A stretch of DNA of 61,242 nucleotides from Promethearchaeota archaeon (GCA_019057865.1 JAHLWP010000024.1:1-61242), one strand, 5' to 3'. Positions 8,796-57,441 are shown, counted from the first letter of the stretch. Notes: generated from the letters alone by a model not told the origin. Numbers and translations are program-made.

Positions 8796-9204
8796 TAATC
8801 TACATATATAAAAAAAAATTTTTTAAATAATTTGTAAGAGACTCATACTTTACTATTGCAAAAATATATTTTAGAGTTTATCAAAATAAGCAATATTTAG
8901 AAAATACCTCCTCTATATATTTAAAGGAAATTCTGGTTTTCCAGAATTAAGTACATAAGGGAGTAGCGTTATACCATTAAAAAGAAATGTTTTTTTGTAA
9001 AAATCTCATCCGTCCAGTTTGTTGCTCTTACTCAATATTTAAAAAATAATGTAAAAAATTTATATTGAGAACCTTATATATATAATATAGATAATATATA
9101 TTGATCTTACAGGTGTTTGTATTTTGAAAGACAAGGCACAACCAAAAATTATTGAGACCGAAATAAATAAAGACCAAGAGTGCTGTTCTGAGGATGATTA
9201 AAAA

Positions 9205-43144: not shown

Positions 43145-46069
43145 ATGATTAAAAATCCCTCTGAGACCAAATCTGATTTGACTTGTGAAGAATGTGGTGA
43201 ACCTATAAAACAAAATCAAACTGGCAATAAGCCTATATATTGTGAATTTTGCGGTGCTCTAAATAATACTGTATATACGCAAAAACAAGAAACTCTTGTT
43301 AAAAGGAGAAGACAAGGACCAAAATCCCAACTAGAACAGAAGGAAATAAGATTTTCTTATACTACTGAAGAATTACGACAAGAAATTAGAAATCTTACCT
43401 ATCAGAAAATTTATGAATTAGTGAAAACAACTTTTTCAGTCATGAGACAACTAAAGCACCAAGAAGATCTTAAACAATCGCAGATATTGAAACTTGCTAA
43501 AAAACTACGAAAGGCATTATTATCTCTTTCTCTTCCTTCCGATAGTGCTGAATTATTGACCAAAACCTCAAAGAAAAAGATTGAAAATTATTTTGAGAAA
43601 TTCCAGTCAGGCTTAAAAAAGAAAAAAAAATCTCAATCCAATTATATGCCTTATTTTATAAAAAATATCAAATTTGTTTTTAGATTAATCAATGGAGATT
43701 ATGAATTCTCAAATCTCACCAAATATAATCAAAAAGCGGTGAAAAAATTAAAAGAAAAATATGGGTTTAAAATCAATGCTAAAACTAAAAACTCATTCTC
43801 CTACTCTTTATCAATACTAATATGTAGAAAAATATATAGAATTATCACGGCTCTGGGGCATGTCTTAGATTTAAAGCACAGTAAAAATGAATTAACTAAA
43901 CAATATAAATTAAGCATTGCTAAAGATATAACAGCGTTAGCTTTAAATAATTATTTCAAGAGAAATTTCTCTAAATCATATAGAAAACTAAAAAAGGATC
44001 TCGAAATCGATTGGGTTTATCGTGAAAGCTTTATTGACCATGTCTGCTCATTAATAAAACTAGTCTATAAATTAACATATAATAAAGGTTATTCCTCTAA
44101 ACTTAGAGGATTTCAAAAATTAATTGCTGAAGAATTAAAAGTAAGTGCACTTTTTGAAAATGATACTAATTATTCACCTTATTTGAGGCTTAATTTAACT
44201 TTGATTCTAAGTAGAATTATTCACTGTGTTCTTGATTTATCCCTAAATTTAACTCCCCTACAATCTGATCCCAGAAAATTGAATCCCACTGAAAACCTAA
44301 GATTAGCAAGTGAGATTATAAATGAAATTTTAGGAGAAAAAAAAATTAAACCGGAATTTTTAAAGAAGTTTTATAACCTCTCTCTAGAAGAATTTCAAAA
44401 GGAATATGAAAAATTACAAGTTAAATTAAATTCTGATATGCTCTATAAAGAAAACTTTCTATCATTTCTACAAAACCTCTTAAATACTGTTTATAAAATT
44501 ACTCACACCAGAAGTAAAAAATCGAACCATTCGAAGATAGAATTAGCAATCATTCAAGATCTCGCAAACTATAACTTTAATTGGGAATCACTCAAAAAAG
44601 AAAAATCACGTTTCTACTCAGAGGAAAAAGATAAGAAGTTTTTAAATAAGAATATTACTCCTGTAAGATCTCCTAAAACTAGTGATATATCAGAGATTTT
44701 GTCTTATTCTACTCTTGACTTAATTGAAGGTTTAAGGGAAGAAATTCAAATTCATTCGGAAGAATTGGCTGAATTTTTCCCAGATAGAGTTAGTAGATAC
44801 TCTGATAGACATCTTTCACGATTTTGGCGTGGTAATAATTATCAGTATATTTCAAAGGTTAAAAATAGGATATTGAATCCGAATAATAAGAATTATCAGC
44901 TTAATTTTGAATTTCCAGATTCAAGTTTAAAACTTCTAGAGGATAATTTAGAAGAAAGACTTGGTGCAAAAGCGATGGGATGTCTTTATATAATTGGAAA
45001 GTACAAAGATCCAAATTCAGGTATTTCTACTCTTGAGTTTATTGAAATGTTAAAGAAAGAGTTAGGAAGGGTTAGTGGTGAGGTTTCGCTAACAAATGAA
45101 GAAATGAGCTTAATATTGAGTGGATCAAAGGATTATATCCATCGCACGTTGGATACCATGTCAAATTCGCGATCTAAGCGGTGGTATAATCCTGACTATA
45201 AATTTCCACTTGAAAGGTTAGAGCATTTTGAACAAGCAATTCGTGAATTATTAGGTTATAAAGCCCAAAAATGTTTAGACTTAATGAACACATACAAAGC
45301 ATTTAATCCAGATTTGAATTATTGGCATCCTAAAGATTATTCTATTAAAAATCCTACATTTTTTGATGAAATAGATTCTCCTGTAAAGGCATATTGGTAT
45401 GGTTTCCTCTGTGCTGATGGATGGATGTATCACAATAGACCAAGAATTGGTTTAGAACAAGCCATTAAAGACAGAGATAGCGTGGTTAAGTTCACTGAGG
45501 TTCTGGGACTAGATATATCTCGAATTGAGGAAAGAACCGGTTTCTTTCGGTATAAAGGAAAAATTAAGACCTTTGAGTCCGCAAGAATTACTTTTTCATC
45601 TAAAAAAATAGCAGATATTCTTAAGGACTATGGATTCTCCGATTTAAAATCTGGGAGTGTTGGACTTCCTAATTTTGTAAAATCGTTGATTAGTCAAGCT
45701 AAGCAAGAGGCTTTACAGAAGGGAGTCCATTGGTCAAGCACCCATTCGGGCAAGGTAGCTTTCGGTTGGCTTCTTGGTTTTTATGATGGTGATGGTACAT
45801 ATATAGGTGTTAGACAAGCTAGGATTTCTTCTACTAACAAAAAGCTTTTAGATGATATTAAGACACATTTTGGAGTTCAGAATTTAGTTTATATTAGTAA
45901 ATCTTTAGATGAATCTTTAGTTGAAGGTCATTGGAGATCTACCAAGACTTTATATTCTTTGAATTTAGGTCCTGATGTCTTTATTTCTATGATTAATAGT
46001 TATGAGGGTAGTATGGTTAGAAAAAGACCAAGTAACCCAACTATAAATTATTTAGGAGATTACGAGTAA
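43145..46069 (+). CDS. large protein: N-terminal zinc ribbon, helical region, C-terminal double-motif LAGLIDADG domain
   Basis: CEECG...CEFCG; AYWYGFLCADG and WLLGFYDGDG. Confidence 0.85.
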   Translation: MIKNPSETKSDLTCEECGEPIKQNQTGNKPIYCEFCGALNNTVYTQKQETLVKRRRQGPKSQLEQKEIRFSYTTEELRQEIRNLTYQKIYELVKTTFSVMRQLKHQEDLKQSQILKLAKKLRKALLSLSLPSDSAELLTKTSKKKIENYFEKFQSGLKKKKKSQSNYMPYFIKNIKFVFRLINGDYEFSNLTKYNQKAVKKLKEKYGFKINAKTKNSFSYSLSILICRKIYRIITALGHVLDLKHSKNELTKQYKLSIAKDITALALNNYFKRNFSKSYRKLKKDLEIDWVYRESFIDHVCSLIKLVYKLTYNKGYSSKLRGFQKLIAEELKVSALFENDTNYSPYLRLNLTLILSRIIHCVLDLSLNLTPLQSDPRKLNPTENLRLASEIINEILGEKKIKPEFLKKFYNLSLEEFQKEYEKLQVKLNSDMLYKENFLSFLQNLLNTVYKITHTRSKKSNHSKIELAIIQDLANYNFNWESLKKEKSRFYSEEKDKKFLNKNITPVRSPKTSDISEILSYSTLDLIEGLREEIQIHSEELAEFFPDRVSRYSDRHLSRFWRGNNYQYISKVKNRILNPNNKNYQLNFEFPDSSLKLLEDNLEERLGAKAMGCLYIIGKYKDPNSGISTLEFIEMLKKELGRVSGEVSLTNEEMSLILSGSKDYIHRTLDTMSNSRSKRWYNPDYKFPLERLEHFEQAIRELLGYKAQKCLDLMNTYKAFNPDLNYWHPKDYSIKNPTFFDEIDSPVKAYWYGFLCADGWMYHNRPRIGLEQAIKDRDSVVKFTEVLGLDISRIEERTGFFRYKGKIKTFESARITFSSKKIADILKDYGFSDLKSGSVGLPNFVKSLISQAKQEALQKGVHWSSTHSGKVAFGWLLGFYDGDGTYIGVRQARISSTNKKLLDDIKTHFGVQNLVYISKSLDESLVEGHWRSTKTLYSLNLGPDVFISMINSYEGSMVRKRPSNPTINYLGDYE

Positions 46070-46231
46070 TAACTAATTTTATGAATATTTTTTTATTTTA
46101 ATCTTTTTTTTAGTGTAAAAAACTAAAGTTTTTTGGAAAAGATATTTTTATATAAAATAAGTTTTTTACTACTATTATTAAGATTGTGTTTAAAGTGATG
46201 ATTGTATATTATGAATTGTTTAGCAATAGAG

Positions 46232-46239
46232 CGAGGAGG
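46232..46239 (+). promoter_or_regulatory. Shine-Dalgarno site of the MglA-like GTPase gene
   Basis: GAGGAGGT about 10 nt before the GTG start at 46250. Confidence 0.7.
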
Positions 46240-46249
46240 TTGGTAAAAA

Positions 46250-46888
46250 GTGCCCTCACGTAGAGGAGATGGGACTCTCGTCTTCAAAATTTGCTTTTAC
46301 GGACCTTCACTCGGAGGAAAGACAACCGCATTGGAATGGGTCTATAACAAGGAAGGACTTGCCAGTGGTGACATGCAACAGATACAAGATCCTACTGGTA
46401 GGACACTCTTCTTTGATAGAGTTGTCGCCCGTGTTTCAAATGTAGTCTTTCAAGTATATACGGTTGCAGGTCAAAGAAGGCATAAATTTCAACGCCAGAC
46501 TGTTCTAAAAGGGACCGATGCTTGTATATTTACATGGGATTCCCTTATCGATCAATGTGCATGATTCGATTTCCGAACGCACGATTATTGGCAAGAGAAT
46601 GTCTGGTCTTTAAAGGAATTAATGAAATTCTATGGAGATAGACTAATTCCAACTGCCCCTGCTGAACCTCCAGCTGTCCCGCTTGTTGTATTGGCTAATA
46701 AACGTGATTTAGAGGATATTATTGAGGTATCTAAAATACGTCAAGTATTTGATACGGCTAAATTAAATCATACACTTATTTATGAAACAATTGCCATAAC
46801 AGGAGTAAATGTAAAAAGAGCTTTTGTATATGCAGCTCGACAAGCAGTACTTAATCACTACAAGAAGTTATCAGGTAAGTCAATGTAA
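46250..46888 (+). CDS. MglA/Arf-like small GTPase, join(46250..46555,46589..46888), 201 aa after removal of a 33-nt intron
   Basis: G1 YGPSLGGKTT, RTLFFD, YTVAGQ, G4 NKRD; the two called ORFs are in the same frame, separated by a single TGA that lies inside the insert. Confidence 0.88.
46556..46588 (+). other. candidate bulge-helix-bulge (BHB) intron in a protein-coding gene
   Basis: 4-bp helix GAUC(46550-53)/GAUU(46583-86); 3-nt bulges AAU(46554-56) and AUU(46587-89); intron stem GUGC/GCAC; exon stem 46539-49/46590-600. Cuts after bulge nt 2 remove 33 nt including the in-frame UGA. Confidence 0.82.
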
Positions 46889-46937
46889 GCTGCTTAAAGA
46901 TTACTAACTTATTTTTAAATTACTTGTTATTAGATTT

Positions 46938-47468
46938 TTATAAATAGATAATTTCAAAATTTACATTTTCTTTTGAGATTTTAAGAAATCCGTATGAATT
47001 TATATCAGTAAATTTCTTATCAGTGGGAGTTCCAGGGCTTATGTATAATTTTCCATCCCTCCACTTTTCATTATATGGATGGTGAACATGCCCAAAAATA
47101 ATAATATCGTATTTAGATAAGTCAAAATACTTATTTAACCGTTCAATAATCATGTCTGGTCCTCCCGTTCCATGAGTCATAAAAATTTTATGACTATATA
47201 AATCAAATTCAATTTTTTCAGGTAAAATCTTTATCAATTTATAATCATCCATATTCCCTCGAATTCCTATAACCTTATCTTTTCCAAAAGTCTCTAATAG
47301 ATCATTATAAACTTTATATTTAGTATAATCTCCTAAATGAAAAAGATAGTCAATATTTCTTTTTTTAAAATCATTGATTATATTTTTAGGAATTTCAGGA
47401 CCTCTTGATGGGATATGAGTATCCCCAATTAGTCCAATAAGTAGCTCATCTTTTTCTGTTTTAATCAT
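46938..47468 (-). CDS. YfcE/Vps29-like metallophosphoesterase
   Basis: GDTHIP, HLGD, RGNMD, THG, FGHVH, SPGT. Confidence 0.92.
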   Translation of the reverse strand: MIKTEKDELLIGLIGDTHIPSRGPEIPKNIINDFKKRNIDYLFHLGDYTKYKVYNDLLETFGKDKVIGIRGNMDDYKLIKILPEKIEFDLYSHKIFMTHGTGGPDMIIERLNKYFDLSKYDIIIFGHVHHPYNEKWRDGKLYISPGTPTDKKFTDINSYGFLKISKENVNFEIIYL

Positions 47469-47510
47469 AGTTAGAACTTAAAGGCTTTAATCTAATTTAC
47501 AGAATCTGAT

Positions 47511-48443
47511 CTATTCTTCTTCTTTATTTTTTTCAACTTCTTTTATTCTAATTTTTATCACTCTGAGAGCGAAATTAATTACGTCATCCATATTACTCCA
47601 TCTGCCTTCATCAAGCATTTCTTTAATCCAGTAATAGAGATCTTGTTCTATTGGAATAGTCATATAAATTGGTTTATATGTCTGTTCCTCTGTAGACTGT
47701 GCTTTATTTAATAACCAAGAAATCATATTTGAGACTAATTTAAAATTATCTGCTGCATTGATACCATAGGATTGCTGTAAACTTGAAAATAAAGATAAAT
47801 TACCTAAAGCTAGAACTTTTCCTAATCCAAAATGCGTGATACCAATCACAGGAACTTTATGGACTGGTTCCTCAACCCAATCATTATCATCAAAATATTT
47901 ATGCCGTGACGATTCCTCAGAAGAAAATGCTATTGCTTTAACATCAATTTTCTCGTTCTCAATAGATTTATCTATATTTAAAGTACAACCGCTTGAATGA
48001 ATTATTTCTGTTATTTCTTTTGTAATAAAATGTTTTTTAAAATCTTTAATAATTGGATGTGAACTTTTTTTTGAAAAATTTTTATCATCAAATAACCTAT
48101 CAGAGTTAAAGGTTATGCCAAAATGCTTAGAAAGTTCTGATAAGTTATTCTTATTATCATAATCGCCACCTTTATCGTTTAATAATAAAAGACTTCCACC
48201 ATCGTTAACATATTTAACTAATACTTCAATCTCATCAGGATTAAGATTAGAATCTGTAGTAGGAACACCAATAATGAAGATATTATATTTATTCAATTTT
48301 TCATAGCTAATTCCGGCTTCAATTTTTCCAAGTTTAAAGTCAGAATTAAATAAGTATTGGATAAAATCAGTAAATGTTTCATTTTCAATAACTAATTTAT
48401 TATTATGGGAATAATCAAATCCAATCGCTTTTTCATTCAACAT
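47511..48443 (-). CDS. GIFT (GldG/IFT52-like, DUF4350-like) domain protein with C-terminal RHH-like tail
   Basis: FDYSHN, EIEVLVKYVNDGGSLLL, FGITFN.D, GKVLALG, DNFKL..N.ISWL; tail ..DDVINFALR. Confidence 0.7.
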   Translation of the reverse strand: MLNEKAIGFDYSHNNKLVIENETFTDFIQYLFNSDFKLGKIEAGISYEKLNKYNIFIIGVPTTDSNLNPDEIEVLVKYVNDGGSLLLLNDKGGDYDNKNNLSELSKHFGITFNSDRLFDDKNFSKKSSHPIIKDFKKHFITKEITEIIHSSGCTLNIDKSIENEKIDVKAIAFSSEESSRHKYFDDNDWVEEPVHKVPVIGITHFGLGKVLALGNLSLFSSLQQSYGINAADNFKLVSNMISWLLNKAQSTEEQTYKPIYMTIPIEQDLYYWIKEMLDEGRWSNMDDVINFALRVIKIRIKEVEKNKEEE

Positions 48444-48520
48444 ATTATATATTTCTCCGTAAATTCTTATTTAATTTTGTATTAATTTGATATTATCATA
48501 AACAAAAAAATATATAAATT

Positions 48521-48874
48521 ATGCTAAAAAAAAATTATCGAGATGTTCAAGCTAAACCTGCAACCTTAATGGATGGCACCCCAGTAGAAAATGTCTTTGT
48601 AAGATGGCTAATAGATGAGCAAACAGGAGCTAAGAATTTTGCTATGAGGCATTTTGAAATCAAACCCGGCACAAAAGTTTCTTTGCATAATCATCTAGAA
48701 GAGCACGAAATTTATATTTTATCTGGGACCGGGAAATTTTATAATGTTAAAGGGCAAGAAGAAATAGCAAGTACGGGAGATTTTTTATATATTCCCCCTA
48801 ATGAAAAGCATGGGATAGACAATATAGGAGAAGATAATCTAATTTTTCTCTGTCTTATTCCAAATCTTAAATAA
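48521..48874 (+). CDS. cupin domain protein
   Basis: HNHLEEHEIYILSG...GDFLYIPPNEKH. Confidence 0.92.
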   Translation: MLKKNYRDVQAKPATLMDGTPVENVFVRWLIDEQTGAKNFAMRHFEIKPGTKVSLHNHLEEHEIYILSGTGKFYNVKGQEEIASTGDFLYIPPNEKHGIDNIGEDNLIFLCLIPNLK

Positions 48875-48888
48875 TAAGTTCAAGAATC

Positions 48889-51327
48889 TTAAGTTTCTTG
48901 TTCACATTTCCCAATTGCTACTACGAAATCATTTTCATAAAGTTTGATAACTCTAACACCCTTAGCTTTTCTGTGAGTAATTCGAATTGAATCAACAGGT
49001 ACCCTTATCATTTGTCCTTGTTCTGTTCCAATTAATAAATCCATATGTTTAGCAAATTTGATAGCAATAACTTCATCATTTTTTGCTTTATTCAAAGTGA
49101 TGTTCTTGACCCCCTTAGCTCCTCTACCAGTCTTACGATATTCTTTAACATATGTTCTTTGACCATAAGCATTTTGAGTGAGTGTTAATATTATCTTATC
49201 GTCAGTAACAAGAAGGCAATCAATAACCTCATCATTTTCTCTTAATTCTGCTCCTTTTACACCCATTGAAGTACGCCCTAATTCTCTTAATTCTGACTCA
49301 TCAAATCTAACCGCATAACCTAATTTAGTGGCTATAAAAATATCCTGGAGTTCATTGGAAAGTCTTTTAACACTTATTAATGCATCATCTGGCCTAATCC
49401 TTTGAGCTCTTACTCCAGTGCTCTTAAATTTTGAGAATAGTTTTAAGGGGGTTTTTTTAATAATACCTTTCTTTGTAGTCATAATAAGCATTTCATTAGT
49501 ATTGAAGTTATTAATTGGTATCATAGCTGATATATTTTCTCCTGTTTGTAAAGCTATAAAATTAATAATTGGTTTTCCTCGAGCAGTTCGTTTTTGTAGT
49601 GGAATACTAAAACATCTAATCGAATACACCCTCCCTTTCGAAGTAAATATTAAAATTGTATCATGAGTTGTACAAACAAATAAATCTGTAATAAAATCTT
49701 CTTCACGTACTGTCATACCTTTTTTTCCTCTACCACCACGTCTTTGAGCTTGATATTCCTGTAAAGAGATTCTTTTGATATATTGATTTTTAGTAAAAAT
49801 TACAATAGTAGTTTCTTTTTTGATTAAATCTATTTTTTCAATTTCTTTTATTTCATGATACTCCACCATTTTAATTTCAGTCCTTCTTTCATCTCCGTAC
49901 TTTTTGTTTAATTCGGTTAAATCGTTTTTAATTATATCTAAACGAACCTGTTTTTCTTTCAGAGTTTTATTATAATCTTCAATACTAGTATGTAACGATT
50001 TTTGTTCATCTACTAACTTTTGTTGCTCTAAATTGGTTAATCGAGATAGAGGCATACTTAAAATAGATTGAACTTGAATATCACTTAATTTATAAGTTAC
50101 TTTTAACTTATTTTTAGCTTCTTTAGTGTCTTTCGAACTTTTGATTATATTCACTACATTATCAATATCATTTAACGCAATTAAAAGACCTTCAACTCTA
50201 TGAAGTCGATCTTTTGCCTTTTTTAGGAGATATTCGGTTCTTTTTTGAATGATAACTAATCGATGTTCAATATATTCATTAATAATTTCTTTTAGATTGA
50301 GAATTTTTGGTTGCTTACCATCATTAACCAGAACTAGATTAGTTATATTAAATGTCGTTAGAAGTCTAGTCCTCTTAAAGAGAATATTTTTTATTATAAC
50401 AGGTTGAGCTTTTTTAGATAAATCTAATACAATGCGCATTCCTTTTCTATCTGATTCATCACGCAAATCTCTAATATCCTTAATTACTCTATCTTTTATT
50501 AAATTAGCGATAGATTCAATTAAAGTTGTTTTATTAACTAAATAGGGAATTTCAGTAATGATTAAACTATTTTTATTTCCTTTTGTTTCAGTTTCAATCT
50601 TACCACTAATATTAATAGTTCCATTCCCCGTATGATATGCATTGTAGATTCCATTTGTGTCAGTAATAATTCCTCCTGTTGGAAAATCAGGACCTTTTAT
50701 GATTTCCATTAATTCTTCTATGGAAATTTCAGAATCTTCTATAGTTGCGACAATCGCATTACAAACTTCTGTTAAATTATGTGGGGCCATGGATGTTGCC
50801 ATTCCCACAGCAATCCCTTTAGTACCATTTAATAAAATATTTGGTAGTTTTGCTGGTAAATACAGTGGTTCAGAGGTACTATTATCAAAATTCGGTTGAA
50901 ACTCTACAGTCTCTTTATCAATATCTTCAACTAACTCATTTGAAATTTGAGATAATCTTGCTTCAGTATATCTATAGGCTGCTGGAGGATCTCCATCTAT
51001 AGATCCGAAATTTCCCTGTGGATGGATTAAAGGATATCTTAATGAGAAATCTTGTCCCATTCTAACAAGTGCATTATAAACAGACATATCACCGTGAGGA
51101 TGATAGTTACCGAGAGTTTCACCTACAATTTTGGCACATTTAACATGAGAACTTGTATAATACCAATTATTTGCTGCCATAGCATATATGATCCTTCGAT
51201 GTACAGGTTTCAAACCATCCCTAACATCCGGGATTGCACGCCCAACGACCACAGACATAGCATAGTCGATGTAGCTGCTTTGCATTTCATCTTTTAATAA
51301 AATCTCTTCTATTTGTTCTGAAGTCAA
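48889..51327 (-). CDS. gyrA: DNA gyrase subunit A
   Basis: RAIPDVRDGLKPVHRR, YHPHGD, AAYRYTEARL, GyrA-box QRRGGRG. Confidence 0.97.
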   Translation of the reverse strand: MTSEQIEEILLKDEMQSSYIDYAMSVVVGRAIPDVRDGLKPVHRRIIYAMAANNWYYTSSHVKCAKIVGETLGNYHPHGDMSVYNALVRMGQDFSLRYPLIHPQGNFGSIDGDPPAAYRYTEARLSQISNELVEDIDKETVEFQPNFDNSTSEPLYLPAKLPNILLNGTKGIAVGMATSMAPHNLTEVCNAIVATIEDSEISIEELMEIIKGPDFPTGGIITDTNGIYNAYHTGNGTINISGKIETETKGNKNSLIITEIPYLVNKTTLIESIANLIKDRVIKDIRDLRDESDRKGMRIVLDLSKKAQPVIIKNILFKRTRLLTTFNITNLVLVNDGKQPKILNLKEIINEYIEHRLVIIQKRTEYLLKKAKDRLHRVEGLLIALNDIDNVVNIIKSSKDTKEAKNKLKVTYKLSDIQVQSILSMPLSRLTNLEQQKLVDEQKSLHTSIEDYNKTLKEKQVRLDIIKNDLTELNKKYGDERRTEIKMVEYHEIKEIEKIDLIKKETTIVIFTKNQYIKRISLQEYQAQRRGGRGKKGMTVREEDFITDLFVCTTHDTILIFTSKGRVYSIRCFSIPLQKRTARGKPIINFIALQTGENISAMIPINNFNTNEMLIMTTKKGIIKKTPLKLFSKFKSTGVRAQRIRPDDALISVKRLSNELQDIFIATKLGYAVRFDESELRELGRTSMGVKGAELRENDEVIDCLLVTDDKIILTLTQNAYGQRTYVKEYRKTGRGAKGVKNITLNKAKNDEVIAIKFAKHMDLLIGTEQGQMIRVPVDSIRITHRKAKGVRVIKLYENDFVVAIGKCEQET

Positions 51328-51375
51328 TTATGACACCATTTCTATTTCAAATTATTATAATTTAGTAGGTAAGAA

Positions 51376-53400
51376 TTAAATATCTAATGTTTTAACTTTA
51401 TCAAAATTGCTAATAATAAATTTTTTTCGACCCTTTACCTCTTTGCCCATCAATTTTGTAAAGATTAAATCATTTTCGAGATAGTTTTCATATGTTACTT
51501 TTTTCAATCTTCTTGAGTCTCTTTTCATTGTAGTGTCATATAGTTCATCAGAGTTCATTTCACCTAGACCCTTGAAGCGTTGAATTTTGATTGATTCAAC
51601 ATTCTTAAGTTTATATTTTGTTTTGATGATTTTGAGAAGAACTTCTTTTTCATTATCTGAATATACGTATTCTTTTGTTTTTTTATAAGAAACTTTATAT
51701 AATGGTGCAACAGCTATAAATAAATACCCATTATCTATTATTGGTCGCATATATCTAAAGAAGAATGTAAGTAAAAGAGTTTCAATATGTTTTCCATCAA
51801 TATCACTATCACACATAATTATTACCTTATGATATCGTAGTTTACTTAAATTGAAGTTTTCTTCAATTTCTTCTCCATTCTCTTCTAATTCTCCATTGGT
51901 TCCGTTTGTTTGACTGGAATCTTGAAATCCAACTCCCAAAGCTTTTATAATAGCTTGAATTTCGTTGTTTTGTAATACTTTATCTATTCTAGCTTTTTCG
52001 ACATTGAGAATTTTACCTCTAATTGGAAGAATTGCTTGATAAGTCCTATCTCTTCCTTGTTTTGCTGGACCACCTGCTGAATCTCCTTCTACTATGAAAA
52101 TCTCTACTTTTTCTGGATCATTTGATGAGCAATCAGCAAGTTTTCCAGGCATTCTTGCACTGTCTAATGCTGATTTTCTTCGTATTAATGTTCTCGCTTT
52201 TTGAGCAGCTTCTCTTGCTATCTTTGCATTAATAGTTTTTAAAACAATCCTTTTAGCAGTTTGCGGGTGTTCTTCGAAATACTGAGTTAATTTTTCAGTA
52301 ACAATTTGGCTAACAATTTGTCTGATTTCGGGATTACCTAACTTTATTTTTGTCTGACTTTCAAATTGAGGATCGGGAAGTTTAACAGAGATTACTGCAG
52401 ATAGACCTTCTCTTGTATCACTTCCACTTAATACATGTCCTTTATACTTCTTTTCCATAAAGTTTTCTACATATGAGTTAAATGCCCTTGTTAAAGCGGA
52501 TTTAAAACCAGTTAAATGAACTCCACCTTCAATTGTATTTATAGTATTTGCATAAGAGAGAATAGTTGTTTGATATCCTTGATTATATTGTATCGCAATA
52601 TCGCAAAGTACCACTGATCCATCTTTATCTTTATAAGAGTCGCTTATGTAAATAATATCATTATGTAGTGGTTGTTTATCCTTGTTTAAATAGGAGATAA
52701 ATTCTTTAAGACCACCCTCATAATGAAATTCTTCTTTAACGTCGGTTATTTTATCATTAAGTTCAAACCTAGTATGAGGTGTAAGAAAAGCTAACTCTCT
52801 TATCCTATTAGAAATCGTAGAAGGATTGAAAATACGTTCTATATTATCGAATTCAAAAATTTCCCTATCTGGATAAAAGGTTATTTTAGTATAAGATTCC
52901 TCAGTAGTTACCTTAGTTATATCTGGTTCTGATACTTTTTTACCTTTAGAAAACTTTTGTTTATAGCAAAGCCCATCGCGGCAAATCTCTACATCCATCC
53001 ATTCTGCTAAAGCATTGACAACCGATAAACCAACGCCGTGTAATCCACCAGAAATTTTATAACTTTTATTGTCAAATTTTCCACCAGAATGTAAATATTC
53101 CATAATAACTTCGAGGGCCGGTTTATTGTATTCAGGATGATTATCGATAGGAATACCTCTACCATTATCAAATATTTGGACAGAATTGTTTTTATTTAGG
53201 GTTATTTTTATCTCATCCGCGAACTCGCCCATTGCTTCGTCGACACAGTTATCCAAAACTTCAAAAATAAGATGATGGAGGCCCTTCTTTCCTGTGGAGC
53301 CAATATAGAGCGCTGGTCTCTTCCTAACACCTTCCAAACCCTTTAAAACCTTTATGTCCTCAGCCTGATAAGAGTTTTGGTCAGAGGATTTATCATTCAT
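51376..53400 (-). CDS. gyrB: DNA gyrase subunit B
   Basis: VRKRP..YIG, SGGLHGVG, EGDSAGG, PIRGKILN, QRFKGLGEMN. Confidence 0.97.
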   Translation of the reverse strand: MNDKSSDQNSYQAEDIKVLKGLEGVRKRPALYIGSTGKKGLHHLIFEVLDNCVDEAMGEFADEIKITLNKNNSVQIFDNGRGIPIDNHPEYNKPALEVIMEYLHSGGKFDNKSYKISGGLHGVGLSVVNALAEWMDVEICRDGLCYKQKFSKGKKVSEPDITKVTTEESYTKITFYPDREIFEFDNIERIFNPSTISNRIRELAFLTPHTRFELNDKITDVKEEFHYEGGLKEFISYLNKDKQPLHNDIIYISDSYKDKDGSVVLCDIAIQYNQGYQTTILSYANTINTIEGGVHLTGFKSALTRAFNSYVENFMEKKYKGHVLSGSDTREGLSAVISVKLPDPQFESQTKIKLGNPEIRQIVSQIVTEKLTQYFEEHPQTAKRIVLKTINAKIAREAAQKARTLIRRKSALDSARMPGKLADCSSNDPEKVEIFIVEGDSAGGPAKQGRDRTYQAILPIRGKILNVEKARIDKVLQNNEIQAIIKALGVGFQDSSQTNGTNGELEENGEEIEENFNLSKLRYHKVIIMCDSDIDGKHIETLLLTFFFRYMRPIIDNGYLFIAVAPLYKVSYKKTKEYVYSDNEKEVLLKIIKTKYKLKNVESIKIQRFKGLGEMNSDELYDTTMKRDSRRLKKVTYENYLENDLIFTKLMGKEVKGRKKFIISNFDKVKTLDI

Positions 53401-53676
53401 AAGAAAATGACCTGTAGAATTTTAATTTGTAATTATAAAAATATTCAAAATACCATTATATTTTGCTGATTTACATATAATAAATAGTAATACTCAAATT
53501 TAAATATAAGCTCAAATCTTTTTAGCTCAAAAATAACAATATGTCTTAATTATTAACCAGAATTTATATATATCAAAAATTGTAAGAGATTTTCTCAAAT
53601 CTATCCTAATTTTAAAATAATTCTTTATTTTGGCCCAAATCTTAAGAGATCACAAAAATTAAAAAATGACTATTAT

Positions 53677-54540
53677 TTACTGATATCTTCTAATTTCTTC
53701 AGCCATTTTTACAATATCTAATAATTGGTTATTCACATCATGAGTTCGAATAATATGAGTACCATTATAAACTGCTATCGCAGTAGAAGAAAGTGTTCCA
53801 TTTAGTCGATTTTCAGGGTCAGGAATATTCAGTGTTGTTCCTATAAAAGATTTTCTTGATACAGCAATCAATATGGGTTTATTAAGTTGCCTTAGTTTAT
53901 TCAAATTCCCTATGATTTTTAAATCATATATATGTACTTTCTTTTCAATCCATTTTCCAATTCCAGGATCTAATACAATATTATTCTCAGCATATCCATT
54001 GGTTTCAAGTTTTTTTATAGTTTTTTCAAATTCTTTAATTATTTCTTCAATTGTACATAAATCTCCAGGAATTTTTTTAGACGCCATCAAAATTACAGGA
54101 AGATTATTTTCAATAATAAATTCTTGTAAGGAAGGATCTGTTTTTAAACAGCTTACATCGTTGATTATTATTTTTCTTTTTGATTTAAGAGAGATATCAT
54201 AAGCAATTTGAGCAACATTACTGTACTGTGTATCAACTGATATTATTATATCTTCAGGAATTATTTTACAAACTAATTCCATAGCGGGGGTTAACCGACT
54301 AATCTCTTCTTCGATAGTTATTTTATCTGACCAAGGAGCAGTAGATCGAGCTCCTAAATCAAGCATTTTTGCTCCATTTTTTATCATATCTAAGGTGGCA
54401 TTCTCTATTTCCCTATCGTCAGAATAAACTGATCCTTGGTAAAAGGATTCGGGGCTTAAATTTAAAACTCCCATAATCACTGTAGGAAAATCATCTCCAA
54501 TTTCTAAGAAATCATAAATTTTTGAATAGATTTTTTTCAT
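53677..54540 (-). CDS. folP: dihydropteroate synthase
   Basis: IMGVLNLSPESF, SVDT, INDVS, DPGIG, SRKSFIG, IRTHDV. Confidence 0.93.
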   Translation of the reverse strand: MKKIYSKIYDFLEIGDDFPTVIMGVLNLSPESFYQGSVYSDDREIENATLDMIKNGAKMLDLGARSTAPWSDKITIEEEISRLTPAMELVCKIIPEDIIISVDTQYSNVAQIAYDISLKSKRKIIINDVSCLKTDPSLQEFIIENNLPVILMASKKIPGDLCTIEEIIKEFEKTIKKLETNGYAENNIVLDPGIGKWIEKKVHIYDLKIIGNLNKLRQLNKPILIAVSRKSFIGTTLNIPDPENRLNGTLSSTAIAVYNGTHIIRTHDVNNQLLDIVKMAEEIRRYQ

Positions 54541-54596
54541 GCTATATCAAGAAAAGAAAAAAAGTATATCAAATAAGTTTAATTTTTTTACCTACA

Positions 54597-55382
54597 ATGG
54601 AATTGTTTTCAATAAAGCTACCACTAATTAAAGAGAATGCTCCCCTATTAGACATTATAATAAAAAATATTAAGAAATCAGGGAAATCGTTAAAAGAAGG
54701 AGATATAATTGTAATTGCTGAGAAAGTAATCGCAACATCTCAAGGACGAGTAGTCAAATTATCTGAAGTAAAAGAGATATCAGAAAAAGCAAAAGAATTT
54801 GCTATTAAATATGATATGGATGAAAGATACGTGGAATTAATTCTTCGAGAAGCCTCAATGATACTAGGAGGAATGAGGCATGTTATATTAGCAAAAGTTA
54901 ATGATTTTCTAATAGCTAATGCCGGAATTGACCAATCTAATGCTGGTCCTGATAATGTTGTTTTATTACCAAAAAATCTTAATGAAGTGGTCTGGGATTA
55001 TTGGAAAGAACTGAAGAAAGTATTTAACATAAATAAATTAGGAGTTATTATATCTGACTCGAGAGTACAACCTCTTAGGAAGGGTACGATTGGAATAGCG
55101 ATAGCTACCGCTGGATTTGAACCAATTGAAGATCTACGTGGTCATCCAGATCTTTTTGGTAGACCTTTAGAGATTACTATGAGAGCCATTGCTGATGATC
55201 TTACAAGTGCGGCTCAATTTCTTTTAAGCGAAGCTGATAAACAAACTCCCGTTGTTATTATTAGAGGCAGTAATGTTGAATTTACTGAAAATCCGAAAAC
55301 AACTCCAGAAATGGCTCCAGAAGAATGTCTTTATATGAATATATTCTCCAAATACCTTCTTAAAAAACAAGAAGAAAATTAG
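54597..55382 (+). CDS. cofE: coenzyme F420-0:L-glutamate ligase
   Basis: LPLIK, DIIVIAEKV, ANAGIDQSN, DLFGRPL..T.RAIAD, TPVVIIRG; start moved to the ATG at 54597. Confidence 0.92.
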   Translation: MELFSIKLPLIKENAPLLDIIIKNIKKSGKSLKEGDIIVIAEKVIATSQGRVVKLSEVKEISEKAKEFAIKYDMDERYVELILREASMILGGMRHVILAKVNDFLIANAGIDQSNAGPDNVVLLPKNLNEVVWDYWKELKKVFNINKLGVIISDSRVQPLRKGTIGIAIATAGFEPIEDLRGHPDLFGRPLEITMRAIADDLTSAAQFLLSEADKQTPVVIIRGSNVEFTENPKTTPEMAPEECLYMNIFSKYLLKKQEEN

Positions 55383-55423
55383 ATTTAGGAATTTTTTATA
55401 AAAGCATTTAATTGTGAAATGGA

Positions 55424-56017
55424 ATGGAAAATATCTTCCGATTAAAAAGAGTCCAAGTTGAACCAGCTGCTAAAGTGCTTGCTAGAGCTTTTGAAAATGA
55501 TCCTTTACACATAGCTTACTTTCCAGATCCTAATAAAAGATTAAAGCAAAATTATCATTTAATGATATTTTGCATTCGATTTTGTATGAGATTTGGTGAA
55601 GTCTACACTACATCACCTAACTTAGAAGGAATTGTCCTGTGGATACTAGTGGATCCGAAAGTAAACCAGCAAGAAAATCCTGGGAGCTTATTTGCAAATT
55701 GGATTAATTTTAGATTAGTGGTTGCTTTAGGTAAAGCAATGGAAAAAGTAGAATTTATTTATGAGTATACGCGTTCAATACATTACAAGCTCATTCCTTC
55801 ATTACATTGGGCCGGTTTTATTATTGGAGTAGATCCAGAATTTCAAGGAAAAGGATATGCCAGCAGTTTGATTAGACCTATGCTTGCTCGGATAGATAAA
55901 GATCATTTAGGGTGTTATCTTGATACTAACAAAGAAAAGAATGTAGGATTGTATCAACACTTTGGTTTCAAAGTCTTGAAAAGATATCAAATCCCTGGAA
56001 CTAATGTTATAAATTAG
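55424..56017 (+). CDS. GNAT family N-acetyltransferase
   Basis: GVDPEFQGKGYAS, NVGLYQHFGF. Confidence 0.9.
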   Translation: MENIFRLKRVQVEPAAKVLARAFENDPLHIAYFPDPNKRLKQNYHLMIFCIRFCMRFGEVYTTSPNLEGIVLWILVDPKVNQQENPGSLFANWINFRLVVALGKAMEKVEFIYEYTRSIHYKLIPSLHWAGFIIGVDPEFQGKGYASSLIRPMLARIDKDHLGCYLDTNKEKNVGLYQHFGFKVLKRYQIPGTNVIN

Positions 56018-56139
56018 TCAATGTTAAGAGAAAATCCACTATAATTTTAGACCATATTATTTAATAATTCAGTCAAATTTTTTAGAAATCGTTAACTAAC
56101 TAAGACATACTAATTGTAAACTATTCTTTTAATTTAAAA

Positions 56140-57441
56140 ATGACAGAATCAAAATATACAACTATAGAAGAAGCTCTAAACAAGGGTTCTACTGATGTGA
56201 ATCTAAGAGGTTGGGTATACAGAGAAAGAAAATCAAATAAGTTTGTATTCATTGTTTTACGGGATGAATCTGATATAATACAATGTGTTATATCCAAAGA
56301 AAAAAATCCAAAACTCTTTGAAAAAGCTGAAAAACTGACTATTGAATCTTCAGTTATGATTTCGGGAGAATTAAAGAAGGATGAAAGAGCTCCCACTGGC
56401 TATGAAATTTCTATATCTGATTTGGAAATACTCCAAATTGCTGAACCATTTCCAATCACTGAACACCAATCACCTGAACTTTTATATGATAATAGACATT
56501 TATGGTTAAGATCAAGGAAATTAAATGCTGTCTTAAAAATTAGGCACACTATTGTTGGAGCAATTCATGAATTTTTTAGAAGTCATGGATATTATGAATT
56601 CGATGCGCCAGTCTTCCAACCTAGTCAGTCCGAAGGTGGTGCCACTTTATTCGAAGTTAAATATTTTGAAGATAAGACTTATCTTAGCCAAACTTGGCAG
56701 TTATATGCTGAAGCAGCTATCTTTTCTTTAGGAAAGATTTACAATATGGGACCAACATTTCGAGCAGAAAGATCAAAAACCTCAAGGCATTTAGCAGAGT
56801 TTTGGATGGCTGAAATGGAGGCTGCATGGATGGAGCTGGAAGAGGTTACCGAAGTTGCTAAAGATGAAATCAGGTTTATAGTTCAACAAGTTTTGAAACA
56901 TAATCGAAAGGAACTTGAAATCTTGGAAAGAGATATCAAATTACTAGAGCATTATGCAAAAGCAGAATATCCTACTATTAAATACGCGGAAGCTCTAGAT
57001 CTCTTAAATAATAAATACAAAATGAACGTACCTTGGGGTAAGGACTTAAGAACTATCGAAGAAGCAAAAATCGCTGAACATTTTAAAGTTCCTGTTGTTG
57101 TTACACATTATCCTATAGAGATTATGGGTTTTTATAAACCACCAAGTAAAGAAAATCCTAAAGAAGCATTATGTTTTGATATGTTAGCCCCTGAAGGATA
57201 TTGTGAAATAGTTGGTGGATCTGAAAGAAGTCTGTTAGTTGAAGATATGGTAAAAAGATTAAAAGCAGATGGTGAAGACCCAAGCAATTATGATTGGTAT
57301 TTTGATTTGAGAAAGTATGGAAGCGTACCTCATTCAGGGTATGGTGTGGGTGTAGAAAGAGTTGTTATGTGGATTTGTGGATTGGATAATATTAAGGATG
57401 CTATACCATTCCCACGGACTCTAAGGCGGAGAACTCCGTGA
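56140..57441 (+). CDS. asnS: asparagine--tRNA ligase
   Basis: RHLWLRS, FRAERSKTSRHLAEFWMAE, EIVGGSER, YDWYFDLRKYGSVPHSG. Confidence 0.95.
   Translation: MTESKYTTIEEALNKGSTDVNLRGWVYRERKSNKFVFIVLRDESDIIQCVISKEKNPKLFEKAEKLTIESSVMISGELKKDERAPTGYEISISDLEILQIAEPFPITEHQSPELLYDNRHLWLRSRKLNAVLKIRHTIVGAIHEFFRSHGYYEFDAPVFQPSQSEGGATLFEVKYFEDKTYLSQTWQLYAEAAIFSLGKIYNMGPTFRAERSKTSRHLAEFWMAEMEAAWMELEEVTEVAKDEIRFIVQQVLKHNRKELEILERDIKLLEHYAKAEYPTIKYAEALDLLNNKYKMNVPWGKDLRTIEEAKIAEHFKVPVVVTHYPIEIMGFYKPPSKENPKEALCFDMLAPEGYCEIVGGSERSLLVEDMVKRLKADGEDPSNYDWYFDLRKYGSVPHSGYGVGVERVVMWICGLDNIKDAIPFPRTLRRRTP

What the first reader, a model, noticed from the sequence alone, without database searches (positions are those of the whole stretch)
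46539..46600. Canonical bulge-helix-bulge intron inside the mRNA of an Asgard MglA-like small GTPase
Seen in sequence: ORFs 46250-46564 and 46622-46888 are one frame broken by a single TGA (46562-64), reading ...WDSLIDQ[CA*FDFRTHDY]WQENVWSLKEL. The RNA can fold as follows. Exon stem AUUCCCUUAUC(46539-49)/GGCAAGAGAAU(46590-600), 9 of 11 positions paired. Central 4-bp helix GAUC(46550-53)/GAUU(46583-86). Two 3-nt bulges on opposite strands, AAU(46554-56) and AUU(46587-89). Intron stem GUGC(46557-60)/GCAC(46579-82) and an inner hairpin UUCG/CGAA. Established knowledge: the archaeal tRNA splicing endonuclease (EndA) cuts BHB motifs after the second nucleotide of each bulge and RtcB ligates the exons. 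Applying that rule removes exactly 46556-46588 (33 nt, including the stop) and gives GAT CAA|TGG CAA, i.e. DS-LIDQWQE-N. That is the DS-x7-N spacing I recall for bacterial MglA (DSQIERMEAN). Structure, frame and protein spacing therefore agree independently. The well-known archaeal mRNA intron is in crenarchaeal cbf5; I know of none in an Asgard GTPase but cannot search the literature. Inference: tRNA-type mRNA splicing in a lineage close to eukaryotes.
Basis: partly seen in the sequence, partly recalled or inferred. Interest (0 to 1): 0.96.

Follow-up and report, generated by a model that had tools for sequence, protein, structure and literature searches.

The report
tRNA-type mini-intron in Asgard GTPase gene
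The only copy of a conserved MglA-like GTPase gene in this Loki-type (Asgard) archaeon is interrupted by a 33-base insert shaped like a tRNA intron, and comparison with about 100 related genomes shows it must be cut out of the messenger RNA, a kind of splicing published for only one archaeal protein gene (cbf5).

Summary
Observation confirmed and first reading supported. Window 46250-46888 is one MglA-like GTPase frame broken by TGA inside a 33-nt insert (46556-46588). The insert sits in a textbook bulge-helix-bulge (BHB) motif. About 80 orthologues in the same family lack exactly these 33 nt and read DSLIDQW-EN, as the cut rule predicts. Eighteen orthologues carry 28-45-nt inserts at 14 sites. 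Many of these inserts shift the frame. Removing them by the same rule gives intact, colinear proteins in every case. Exons stay under strong purifying selection (30 synonymous against 3 non-synonymous changes since the window's intron was shared). Helix pairs covary, and intron-bearing alleles use synonymous codons that build the exon helix. Independent metagenome contigs hold the insert, and a relative's contig skips exactly it. The genome encodes EndA alpha and beta and RtcB. No RNA data cover this gene, so splicing is inferred, not seen. I found no paper on mRNA BHB introns in Asgard archaea. This scan has noted the same phenomenon before, in this genome and in other Asgard genomes. New here: a free-standing double-LAGLIDADG endonuclease gene lies just upstream of the GTPase in five genomes of three genera. 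All five carry an intron at this site or 9 nt away, against 0 of 64 intron-less loci. This suggests collaborative homing.

The parts
46233..46239 (+). Shine-Dalgarno-like GAGGAGG, 10 nt before the GTG start
   Evidence: read from the sequence
46250..46555 (+). Exon 1 of the MglA-like GTPase (codons 1-102: P-loop GPSLGGKTT, switch I, G3 TVAGQ, ...WDSLIDQ)
   Evidence: Colinear with about 80 uninterrupted orthologues.
46556..46588 (+). 33-nt BHB intron carrying the in-frame TGA (46562-64). Three placements (shifted by up to 2 nt) give the same product.
   Evidence: Absent at exactly these bases from orthologues and from a relative's contig in run X7. BHB score 11/13 at these boundaries.
46589..46888 (+). 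Exon 2 (WQENVWSLKEL..., G4 NKRD, ...GKSM, stop TAA 46886-88)
46539..46549 (+). 5' strand of exon-exon helix h. It pairs with 46590-46600 (9 of 11 pairs).
   Evidence: Intron-bearing alleles have 5-7 of 8 pairs against a mean of 3.9 in 114 intron-less junctions.
46550..46553 (+). 5' strand of the central 4-bp helix H (GAUC). It pairs with 46583-46586 (GAUU).
   Evidence: Position H2 covaries TA/TG/CG among six genomes.
46554..46556 (+). 5' bulge AAU. Predicted cut between 46555 and 46556.
   Evidence: The 5' bulge reads AA|N in most of the inserts found.
46557..46582 (+). Intron helix h' (46557-60/46579-82) enclosing the hairpin UUCG 46565-68 / CGAA 46574-77
   Evidence: All six h' positions show compensatory pair types at this site across genomes.
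46583..46586 (+). 3' strand of the central helix H (GAUU)
46587..46589 (+). 3' bulge AUU. Predicted cut between 46588 and 46589.
46590..46600 (+). 3' strand of exon-exon helix h
43145..46069 (+). 974-aa ORF that ends 180 nt upstream of the GTPase start. Its C-terminal part (about 44702-46066) is a double-motif LAGLIDADG endonuclease module (AYWYGFLCADG and WLLGFYDGDG). It may be the mobile partner of the intron.
   Evidence: Synteny with the nearest relatives breaks at 46084-46107.

Best explanation
The 33 nt at 46556-46588 are an archaeal bulge-helix-bulge (tRNA-type) intron inside the coding sequence of the genome's single MglA-like small GTPase gene. In the transcript, exon sequences on both sides pair with each other (helix h). 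Four exon bases pair with four intron bases (central helix H). The intron closes on itself (helix h'). Two 3-nt bulges are left on opposite strands. The heteromeric splicing endonuclease EndA (alpha and beta subunits, both encoded in the genome) cuts after the 2nd nucleotide of each bulge. RtcB then joins the exons to give GAUCAA|UGGCAA, and probably circularises the 33-mer. Only the spliced mRNA encodes the full 201-aa GTPase (...DSLIDQWQENVWSLK...). The unspliced mRNA ends at UGA after 104 codons, before the NKRD guanine-specificity motif.

Shown: the motif, the exact boundaries, the colinearity with orthologues, purifying selection, covariation, and the presence of the enzymes. Inferred: the cutting and ligation themselves, the enzymes responsible, and the circular product.
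For: (1) Exact boundaries. About 80 orthologues in 135 genomes of the family are 600-606 nt long and read DSLIDQW[QGS]EN across the predicted junction. The nearest relative (90% nt identity over 10.7 kb) differs by only two indels of 8 nt or more. Both are short inserts in this gene: 33 nt in the window and 30 nt in G012 at another site.

(2) Recurrence. Eighteen orthologues carry inserts of 28-45 nt at 14 sites, up to 4 per gene. Many are 28, 29, 31 or 32 nt long and so shift the frame. Removing them by the BHB cut rule gives stop-free proteins in all 18. These align with the intron-less reference with at most one gap column, apart from one copy cut by its contig end.

(3) BHB geometry is enriched at the orthologue-defined boundaries. 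The median p is 0.0035, and 17 of 27 inserts reach p<0.01 against 66,173 null placements.

(4) The interrupted genes are functional. Since the intron was shared, synonymous against non-synonymous codon differences are 30:3 (window vs G088), 104:11, 106:19 and 47:5. G000 has no second copy.

(5) Covariation at this very site in six genomes. H2 shows TA/TG/CG, exon helix h3 shows TA/CG, and all six h' positions are compensatory. The exon helix is built by synonymous codon choice, with 5-7 of 8 pairs against a mean of 3.9 in intron-less alleles (Mann-Whitney p 6e-5).

(6) It is not an assembly artefact. Contigs from two other studies (X3, X4) span the insert without a difference. A relative's contig (X7) skips exactly 46556-46588.

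(7) The machinery is present. There are two EndA-domain genes, one with the Tyr/His/Lys catalytic residues and one without the His, plus RtcB. Asgard EndA is reported as (alpha-beta)2 with the broad-specificity L1 loop (PMC5829648). The genome's tRNA genes are themselves heavily interrupted: ARAGORN finds 30, of which 18 have introns of 11-61 nt and two calls are much longer.
Against: No RNA evidence exists for this gene. No RNA run holds it, and the one metatranscriptome laid gave no cover. The nearest-neighbour energy model prefers a symmetric 3x3 internal loop to the BHB register by about 3.9 kcal/mol, and the region is no more stable than shuffles (z -0.43). A third of the inserts miss the strictest hBHBh' definition by one pair. 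My genome-wide motif plus ORF-rescue scan could not separate real from decoy motifs (240 vs 231), so the shape alone has little predictive power.
Confidence: 0.9

Rival explanations
1. The gene is a pseudogene, or a gene freshly disrupted by a small insertion, and no full-length protein is made.
For: An in-frame stop after codon 104. No RNA or protein data.
Against: It is the only orthologue in a 99.7% complete genome. The same intron is kept in G088, while the exons differ at 30 synonymous against 3 non-synonymous codons. Seventeen other species keep interrupted but otherwise perfect genes. The only lesion is a BHB-shaped insert at exact cut-rule boundaries.
Confidence: 0.03
2. The insert is translated. 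UGA is read through or recoded (Sec or Trp), giving a GTPase with 11 extra residues.
For: The insert is a multiple of 3 and carries only one stop, a UGA. Some Asgard archaea use selenocysteine (my own knowledge).
Against: About 80 orthologues lack these 11 codons, and bacterial MglA aligns without a gap there. Inserts at this same site in other genomes are 31 nt (frame-shifting) or carry TAA/TAG. The insert sequence is conserved as RNA structure, not as codons.
Confidence: 0.02
3. The insert is removed, but not by EndA and RtcB. Candidates are another nuclease/ligase pair, or excision at the DNA level in a fraction of cells.
For: The enzymes are inferred only from the motif and from gene presence. 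A DNA contig without the 33 nt exists in run X7.
Against: The X7 contig differs from the window at 40 of 189 upstream positions, so it comes from another lineage and is not an excision product. The geometry and cut positions are those of EndA substrates, and they covary as such.
Confidence: 0.04
4. The insert is an assembly or binning artefact.
For: The genome is a MAG with 5% estimated contamination.
Against: Identical sequence across the insert appears in contigs of two unrelated studies (X3 record 4, X4 record 8). A near-identical intron is present in G088.
Confidence: 0.01

Closest known systems
BHB intron in the cbf5 (pseudouridine synthase) pre-mRNA of Crenarchaeota (Watanabe 2002; Yoshinari 2006; Yokobori 2009, PMC2738675)
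   Same: A short intron inside a protein-coding frame. It has an hBHBh' motif built from exon and intron, is removed by the hetero-oligomeric splicing endonuclease, and is patchily gained and lost among relatives.
   Different: The host gene (an MglA-like GTPase) and the phylum (Promethearchaeota/Lokiarchaeia) differ. There are 14 insertion sites in one 600-nt gene, with up to 4 introns per allele, and turnover between genomes that are 90% identical. A free-standing LAGLIDADG gene is associated with one of the sites. Splicing is not yet shown experimentally here.
Non-canonical BHB introns of archaeal tRNA genes, including the heavily interrupted tRNA genes of Asgard archaea (Marck & Grosjean 2003; bioRxiv 10.64898/2026.10.13.758758)
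   Same: The same motif, the same size range (about 11-60 nt), the same predicted enzymes and the same pattern of repeated gains.
   Different: The substrate is an mRNA. The exon half of the motif is made of codons, so it is tuned through synonymous sites. The consequence of failing to splice is a truncated protein, not a dead tRNA.
LAGLIDADG-bearing BHB introns of crenarchaeal rRNA genes (I-DmoI, I-PorI)
   Same: A BHB intron associated with a LAGLIDADG homing endonuclease. I-DmoI is among the best structural matches of the neighbouring ORF.
   Different: There the endonuclease gene lies inside a long intron. Here the intron is 33 nt and has no ORF, and the endonuclease gene stands free. It ends 180 nt upstream of the host gene's start, about 490 nt from the intron.
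Collaborative or trans homing in phages: free-standing F-CphI with the ORF-less psbA group I intron (PMC6083498); T4 mobE with the I-TevIII intron (PMC2790892)
   Same: A free-standing endonuclease gene lies next to a gene with an ORF-less intron, and the two elements co-occur across genomes.
   Different: The intron type (BHB, protein-spliced), the domain of life and the endonuclease family differ. The target site and the cleavage are untested here.
MglA (Myxococcus xanthus, Thermus thermophilus) and Asgard MglA-like GTPases (PMC10933270)
   Same: The best solved relatives are MglA (E 1e-21, 5ymx/6h17/3t12). Shared features are the G3 motif TV[AP]GQ, NKRD and the gap-free DS-x7-N stretch.
   Different: About 35% identity. 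The function in Asgard archaea is unknown, and no MglB/roadblock gene lies directly beside it in the window.

Membership tests
Archaeal BHB (EndA/RtcB-spliced) intron | [quoted passage not shown] | tested here: met
   46554-56 and 46587-89 flank GAUC/GAUU, all 4 pairs formed
Archaeal BHB (EndA/RtcB-spliced) intron | Flanking helices h (exon-exon) and h' (intron) of at least 2 bp each (strict hBHBh') | tested here: met
   h has 2 contiguous pairs next to H and 9 of 11 overall. h' has 4 contiguous pairs.
Archaeal BHB (EndA/RtcB-spliced) intron | Cutting after the 2nd bulge nucleotide and joining the exons restores a functional product | tested here: met
   The in-silico product is colinear with about 80 intron-less orthologues and with MglA. 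A relative's DNA lacks exactly these 33 nt.
Archaeal BHB (EndA/RtcB-spliced) intron | The structure is maintained by compensatory change | tested here: met
   Site 306 in six genomes: H2, h3 and h'0-5 all show compensatory pair types. Only six sequences from three lineages are available.
Archaeal BHB (EndA/RtcB-spliced) intron | Splicing endonuclease and RtcB ligase are encoded by the host | tested here: met
   PF01974 hits at C71 (104.6 bits) and C69 (70.5 bits). PF01139 hit at C75 (561 bits).
Archaeal BHB (EndA/RtcB-spliced) intron | The spliced RNA, the excised intron or in-vitro cleavage has been observed | not testable with these tools
   No RNA run holds the gene. The metatranscriptome X23 gave no cover.
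Stop-codon recoding (selenocysteine or read-through) | The extra codons are translated and conserved as protein in relatives | tested here: not met
   Orthologues lack them. Inserts at the same site in other genomes are 30-31 nt, unrelated in sequence, and frame-shifting or carrying TAA/TAG.
MglA-type small GTPase | Ras-like G domain with P-loop, TV[AP]GQ in place of DxxGQ, and NKxD. MglA is the closest characterised relative. | tested here: met
   phmmer against the PDB puts the MglA chains on top (E 1.3e-21 to 7e-20). Rab7 follows at 4e-11. Pfam reports only the generic Arf/Ras families.
LAGLIDADG homing endonuclease (neighbouring ORF 43145-46069) | Two LAGLIDADG motifs with the acidic residue, and the alpha-beta-beta-alpha-beta-beta-alpha fold | tested here: met
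   CADG and DGDG are invariant in 4 homologues, except for one G-to-A change. Foldseek top hits are bI3 maturase, I-AniI and I-DmoI (prob 1.00, E 5e-6), but TM is only 0.3-0.44 on a model of pLDDT 62. The Pfam LAGLIDADG_3 hit is below the cut-off in this protein (21.8 vs 22.5 bits). The family is on record for relatives.
Collaborative homing (free-standing endonuclease plus ORF-less intron) | The endonuclease gene is adjacent to the intron-bearing gene and co-occurs with the intron across genomes | tested here: met
   An orthologue or remnant lies directly upstream in G000, G137, G069, G105 and G112. All five carry an intron at site 306 or 315. None of 64 intron-less loci with at least 1.5 kb of upstream sequence has it. 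Two intron-bearing loci lack it. The genomes are related, so this amounts to about 3 independent lineages.
Collaborative homing (free-standing endonuclease plus ORF-less intron) | The endonuclease cuts the intron-less allele at or near the intron insertion site, and the intron blocks cutting | not testable with these tools
   This needs a cleavage assay. Only indirect hints exist (a divergence switch near the site).

The most novel reading that the evidence does not exclude
The intron at site 306 (or 315 in one genus member) may be one half of a two-part mobile element. In this reading, a free-standing double-LAGLIDADG endonuclease gene, inserted about 160-300 nt upstream of the GTPase gene, cuts intron-less alleles in the conserved DSLIDQW-EN coding stretch. 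The ORF-less BHB intron splits that target and protects its carrier. Endonuclease gene, exon 1 and intron are then co-converted into naive alleles. This would be an archaeal form of collaborative homing. It would give a DNA-level route by which tRNA-type introns enter and spread among protein-coding genes of the closest prokaryotic relatives of eukaryotes.
Probability: 0.35. Interest if true: 0.92.

Novelty: new member of a known kind. Interest (0 to 1): 0.8.

Why it matters
Archaeal mRNA splicing by the tRNA machinery is documented in the literature I could search for one gene only, cbf5 in Crenarchaeota. Here a conserved signalling GTPase of Lokiarchaeia-type Asgard archaea can be made only after such splicing. 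The same 600-nt gene has acquired introns at 14 positions in one family, and these turn over between genomes that are 90% identical. So protein-coding genes in the lineage nearest to eukaryotes are routinely 'genes in pieces', through a protein-enzyme splicing pathway that eukaryotes also inherited (the TSEN complex and RtcB). This bears on how tolerance of introns could arise before the spliceosome. It also has a practical side. Gene callers split or truncate such genes, so Asgard proteomes and 'missing' genes are mis-annotated. The link with a free-standing homing endonuclease offers a testable answer to an open question stated in a 2026 preprint on Asgard tRNA introns: how BHB introns arrive.

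Tried and rejected
(1) Plain MFE folding of 46530-46610 gives a symmetric 3x3 loop, not the BHB, and is no more stable than shuffles. Thermodynamics alone neither finds nor supports the motif.

(2) I scanned G000 genome-wide for strict BHB motifs (L 20-60) whose removal joins two open frames of at least 50 codons. This gave 240 hits against 231 for a parallel-pairing decoy, with no excess at 28-33 nt. I therefore cannot give my own count of mRNA introns in this genome.

(3) RNA evidence: no RNA holder is listed for this gene. The metatranscriptome X23, from the same study as X3, gave no cover.

(4) I looked for co-conversion evidence. Window exon 1 is 77-84% identical to the three nearest intron-less relatives and exon 2 is 90-93% identical. 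The X7 contig switches from 21% to under 1% divergence about 40 nt before the intron site. However, divergence between the window and G012 is mosaic all along the 9 kb, and Logan contigs can be chimeric. This is suggestive only.

(5) I checked other LAGLIDADG paralogues of G000 (C3, C4, C22, C69, C39, window 57676-61035) and of G123 and G107 for split genes next to them. No clear case was found. A 40-nt candidate upstream of an RFC gene on C4 was rejected because the downstream ORF already starts with the RFC N-terminus.

(6) phmmer of the endonuclease module against PDB sequences found nothing. NCBIfam also found nothing.

(7) Group I/II intron, intein and selenocysteine readings are rejected on size, on the stops and frame shifts in sister inserts, and on the absence of the codons from orthologues.

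(8) L037 (G060) has unresolved inserts near its 5' end and was left out of the counts.

Full report
WHAT IS THERE. Window 46250-46888 (+) is a single reading frame with a Shine-Dalgarno-like GAGGAGG 10 nt before a GTG start. One TGA at 46562-64 interrupts it. I checked base by base that the surrounding RNA can form the proposed structure.
- Exon-exon helix h: 46539-49/46590-600, 9 of 11 pairs.
- Central helix H: GAUC 46550-53 / GAUU 46583-86.
- Bulges: AAU 46554-56 and AUU 46587-89, on opposite strands.
- Intron helix h': GUGC/GCAC.
- Inner hairpin: UUCG/CGAA.

The order of elements is helix h, then H, then a bulge on the 5' strand, and h', then H, then a bulge on the 3' strand. This is the order found in pre-tRNA. 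The EndA rule (cut after the second bulge nucleotide) removes 46556-46588 and joins GATCAA to TGGCAA in frame.

IS THE SHAPE ALONE MEANINGFUL? No. A minimal strict BHB is met by about 5e-4 of arbitrary (position, length) pairs. That gives 24-42 chance motifs per 600-nt gene, including in intron-less orthologues. RNAfold prefers a symmetric 3x3 internal loop. The region is no more stable than shuffles (z -0.43), and the BHB-constrained fold is 3.9 kcal/mol above the MFE. A genome-wide scan for strict motifs whose removal joins two open frames gave 240 hits against 231 for a decoy. The case therefore rests on comparative evidence.

COMPARATIVE EVIDENCE. The gene is single-copy in a 99.7% complete MAG. 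Public records of the same gene are labelled Promethearchaeota/Promethearchaeia, which is the Loki lineage. In 135 genomes of the same family, 99 have an orthologue at E<=1e-50. About 80 of these are uninterrupted, 600-606 nt long, and read DSLIDQW[QGS]EN[IV]WSLKEL. This is exactly the predicted spliced product.

The nearest relative, G012, aligns to the window at 90% identity from 46107 to 57413. In those 10.7 kb the only indels of 8 nt or more are two short inserts, both in this gene. One is the 33 nt in the window. The other is a 30-nt insert with a TAG at a different codon in G012.

Across the family, 18 orthologues carry inserts of 28-45 nt at 14 sites. In nucleotides of the intron-less gene, the sites are 26, 38, 56, 68, 103, 123, 133, 154, 187, 204, 210, 223, 306 and 315. 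All lie in the first, most conserved half of the gene, and one allele can carry up to four. Many inserts are 28, 29, 31 or 32 nt long and so shift the frame. This excludes read-through as a general explanation. Removing each insert by the BHB cut rule yields stop-free proteins in all 18 genes, aligned to the reference with at most one gap column except in one copy cut by its contig end. Identity to the intron-less reference is 81-94%.

At boundaries fixed by the alignment, a 13-pair BHB score reaches p<0.01 in 17 of 27 inserts against 66,173 null placements (median p 0.0035). For the window's insert the score is 11/13, p about 3.5e-3. For a few inserts I chose among offsets by BHB score. Their correctness is supported independently by the restored frame.

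THE INTERRUPTED GENES ARE ALIVE. Four pairs of genomes share an intron. Their exons differ mostly at synonymous codons.
- Window vs G088:C1: 30 synonymous to 3 non-synonymous.
- G064 vs G069: 104:11.
- G137 vs G112: 106:19.
- G012 vs G087: 47:5.

The window's intron itself differs from that of G088 at 3 of 33 positions. One change removes the first h' pair and another creates a fifth pair.

STRUCTURE IS SELECTED. Site 306 is occupied in six genomes by three unrelated intron sequence families of 33, 30 and 31 nt. The geometry is kept throughout. The central-helix position H2 is TA, TG or CG, where the exon base is the synonymous third position of Asp. The exon-exon pair h3 is TA or CG. All six h' positions show compensatory pair types. 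Intron-bearing alleles spell Leu-Ile as CT[TC] ATC and form 5-7 of 8 exon-helix pairs. The 114 intron-less junctions, mostly TTA ATA, form 3.9 on average (Mann-Whitney p 6e-5). Some of these genomes are duplicated in that set and they are related, so the p value is indicative only.

NOT AN ARTEFACT. Contigs of two other studies (a hydrothermal vent and a subsurface metagenome) span the insert with no difference. A cold-seep contig from a relative skips exactly 46556-46588.

MACHINERY. G000 has two EndA-domain genes. The C71 ORF has the Tyr, His and Lys of the catalytic triad as I read it from the sequence. The C69 ORF lacks the His, as a structural beta subunit would. G000 also has RtcB. Asgard EndA has been described as (alpha-beta)2 with the L1 loop that confers broad substrate range (PMC5829648). 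ARAGORN finds only 30 tRNA genes, 18 of them with introns. This is consistent with the heavy interruption of Asgard tRNA genes reported in bioRxiv 10.64898/2026.10.13.758758.

THE GENE. Its best solved relatives are MglA of Myxococcus and Thermus (E 1e-21 to 7e-20), with Rab7 next at 4e-11. The alignment is gap-free across the splice junction: DSQIERMEAN against DSLIDQWGEN. Asgard MglA-like GTPases are known (PMC10933270). Unspliced mRNA would give 104 residues without the NKRD motif.

MECHANISM AND CONFIDENCE. I put 0.9 on removal at the RNA level by EndA and RtcB. Cutting, joining and the probable circular 33-mer are inferred. No RNA data cover the gene. The rivals (pseudogene, recoding, another removal route, artefact) together get about 0.1.

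LITERATURE. Searches for BHB introns, mRNA and Asgard returned no report. A 2025 paper on archaeal splicing endonucleases still cites only the cbf5 papers for introns in protein-coding genes. The library lacks most subscription journals, so absence is not proof. Earlier AI notes of this scan describe the same kind of insert in other genes of this genome and in other Asgard genomes, some with RNA-derived contigs. I did not test those notes. They are leads, not support.

A SECOND FINDING: THE NEIGHBOUR. The 974-aa ORF 43145-46069 ends 180 nt before the GTPase start. Its last 455 residues or so hold two invariant LAGLIDADG motifs. Relatives carry Pfam LAGLIDADG_3. A moderate AlphaFold model (pLDDT 62) matches bI3 maturase, I-AniI and I-DmoI best.

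Synteny with G012 and with G088:C1 breaks at 46084-46107, just after this ORF, so the ORF is an insertion relative to those genomes. Orthologues (52-57% identity, about 465 aa) lie on the same strand, about 160-300 nt upstream of the GTPase gene, in G137, G105 and G069. A remnant lies there in G112. In G106 the contig ends before the GTPase gene could be seen.

All five assessable loci have an intron at site 306 or, in G105, at site 315, which is 9 nt away. None of 64 loci that lack a site-306 insert and have at least 1.5 kb of upstream sequence has the ORF. Two intron-bearing loci (G064, G088:C1) lack it. A naive Fisher test gives about 2e-6. The data come from three genera, so this is roughly three independent lineages. 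Introns at the other 12 sites are never accompanied by this ORF.

Members of the same endonuclease family sit beside glcD-like genes in three unrelated contigs. In one of them a 40-residue fragment with a FAD-oxidase C-terminal-domain hit lies just downstream of the endonuclease gene, as expected of mobile cassettes. This pattern fits collaborative homing as known from phages (PMC2790892, PMC6083498). In that model the endonuclease would cut the conserved intron-less site, and the intron would protect carriers and travel with the endonuclease gene. The supporting hints remain inconclusive: a divergence switch near the site, and exon 1 being more divergent than exon 2 from close relatives. Divergence is mosaic throughout the region. 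I give this reading 0.35.

VERDICT. The intron itself is a new member of a known kind (a BHB intron in an mRNA), in a new lineage and gene. The density and turnover of intron sites is not described in the papers I could search. The possible endonuclease partnership, if shown, would be a new route of intron spread.

Noticed in passing
window 43145-46069 (+); also G137:C197:22994-24325, G105:C35:41359-42699, G069:C130:6207-7541, remnant at G112:C77 about 8886-9047: A free-standing double-LAGLIDADG endonuclease gene lies directly upstream of the GTPase gene only in genomes that carry an intron at site 306 or 315 (5 of 5, against 0 of 64 intron-less loci). Synteny with the nearest relatives breaks right after it (46084-46107).
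   Followed up: partly
window 43145-44700 and G000 C39:20967-22520: The N-terminal 520 residues of the 974-aa ORF (Zn-ribbon start, long helical region) have an 89% identical copy on contig C39, fused there to a different C-terminus. In other genomes the endonuclease is only about 465 aa, so the window's ORF looks like a recent fusion of two modules.
   Followed up: no
window 57676-61035 (-): A second, 38-40% identical LAGLIDADG module forms the C-terminus of an 1119-aa ORF. It lies at the other end of the block syntenic with G012 (the break is at 57413). No split gene was seen next to it.
   Followed up: partly
orthologues L001-L048, L141 (gene coordinates): All 14 intron sites of the GTPase family lie within nt 26-315 of the 603-nt gene, which is the conserved G1-G3 half. 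None lies in the second half.
   Followed up: no
window 46107-57413 vs G012:C47:50500-61350: Divergence between the two genomes is strongly mosaic: blocks of 0-2% alternate with blocks of 15-25%. This points to frequent recombination between lineages. The segment 55413-56055 (ORF 55424-56017) does not align to G012.
   Followed up: no
run X7 contig, window 46367-46940: An intron-less allele from a cold-seep metagenome shows 40 differences in the 189 nt before the intron site but 3 in the 352 nt after it. This could be a recombination breakpoint near the intron site or a chimeric contig.
   Followed up: partly
L138:3001-5163; L139, L140: Homologues of the endonuclease sit next to glcD-like FAD-oxidase / CCG genes in three unrelated contigs. 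In L138 a 40-residue fragment with a FAD-oxidase C-terminal-domain hit follows the endonuclease gene, as if the cassette had brought a replacement gene end.
   Followed up: no
G000 whole genome: ARAGORN finds only 30 tRNA genes in a 99.7% complete genome, 18 of them with introns. Many tRNA genes are probably too interrupted to be recognised.
   Followed up: no
window 47511-48443 (-): The 310-aa ORF two genes downstream of the GTPase hits the IFT52 GIFT domain (PF23355, E 2.7e-11) and ABC_transp_aux, a domain otherwise known from eukaryotic intraflagellar transport.
   Followed up: no
G088 (C27:44586-45188 and C1:3-422): This MAG holds two alleles of the GTPase gene, one intron-less and one with the window's intron. 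It is probably a mix of two strains, and it shows that presence or absence of the intron is polymorphic at a very short evolutionary distance.
   Followed up: partly
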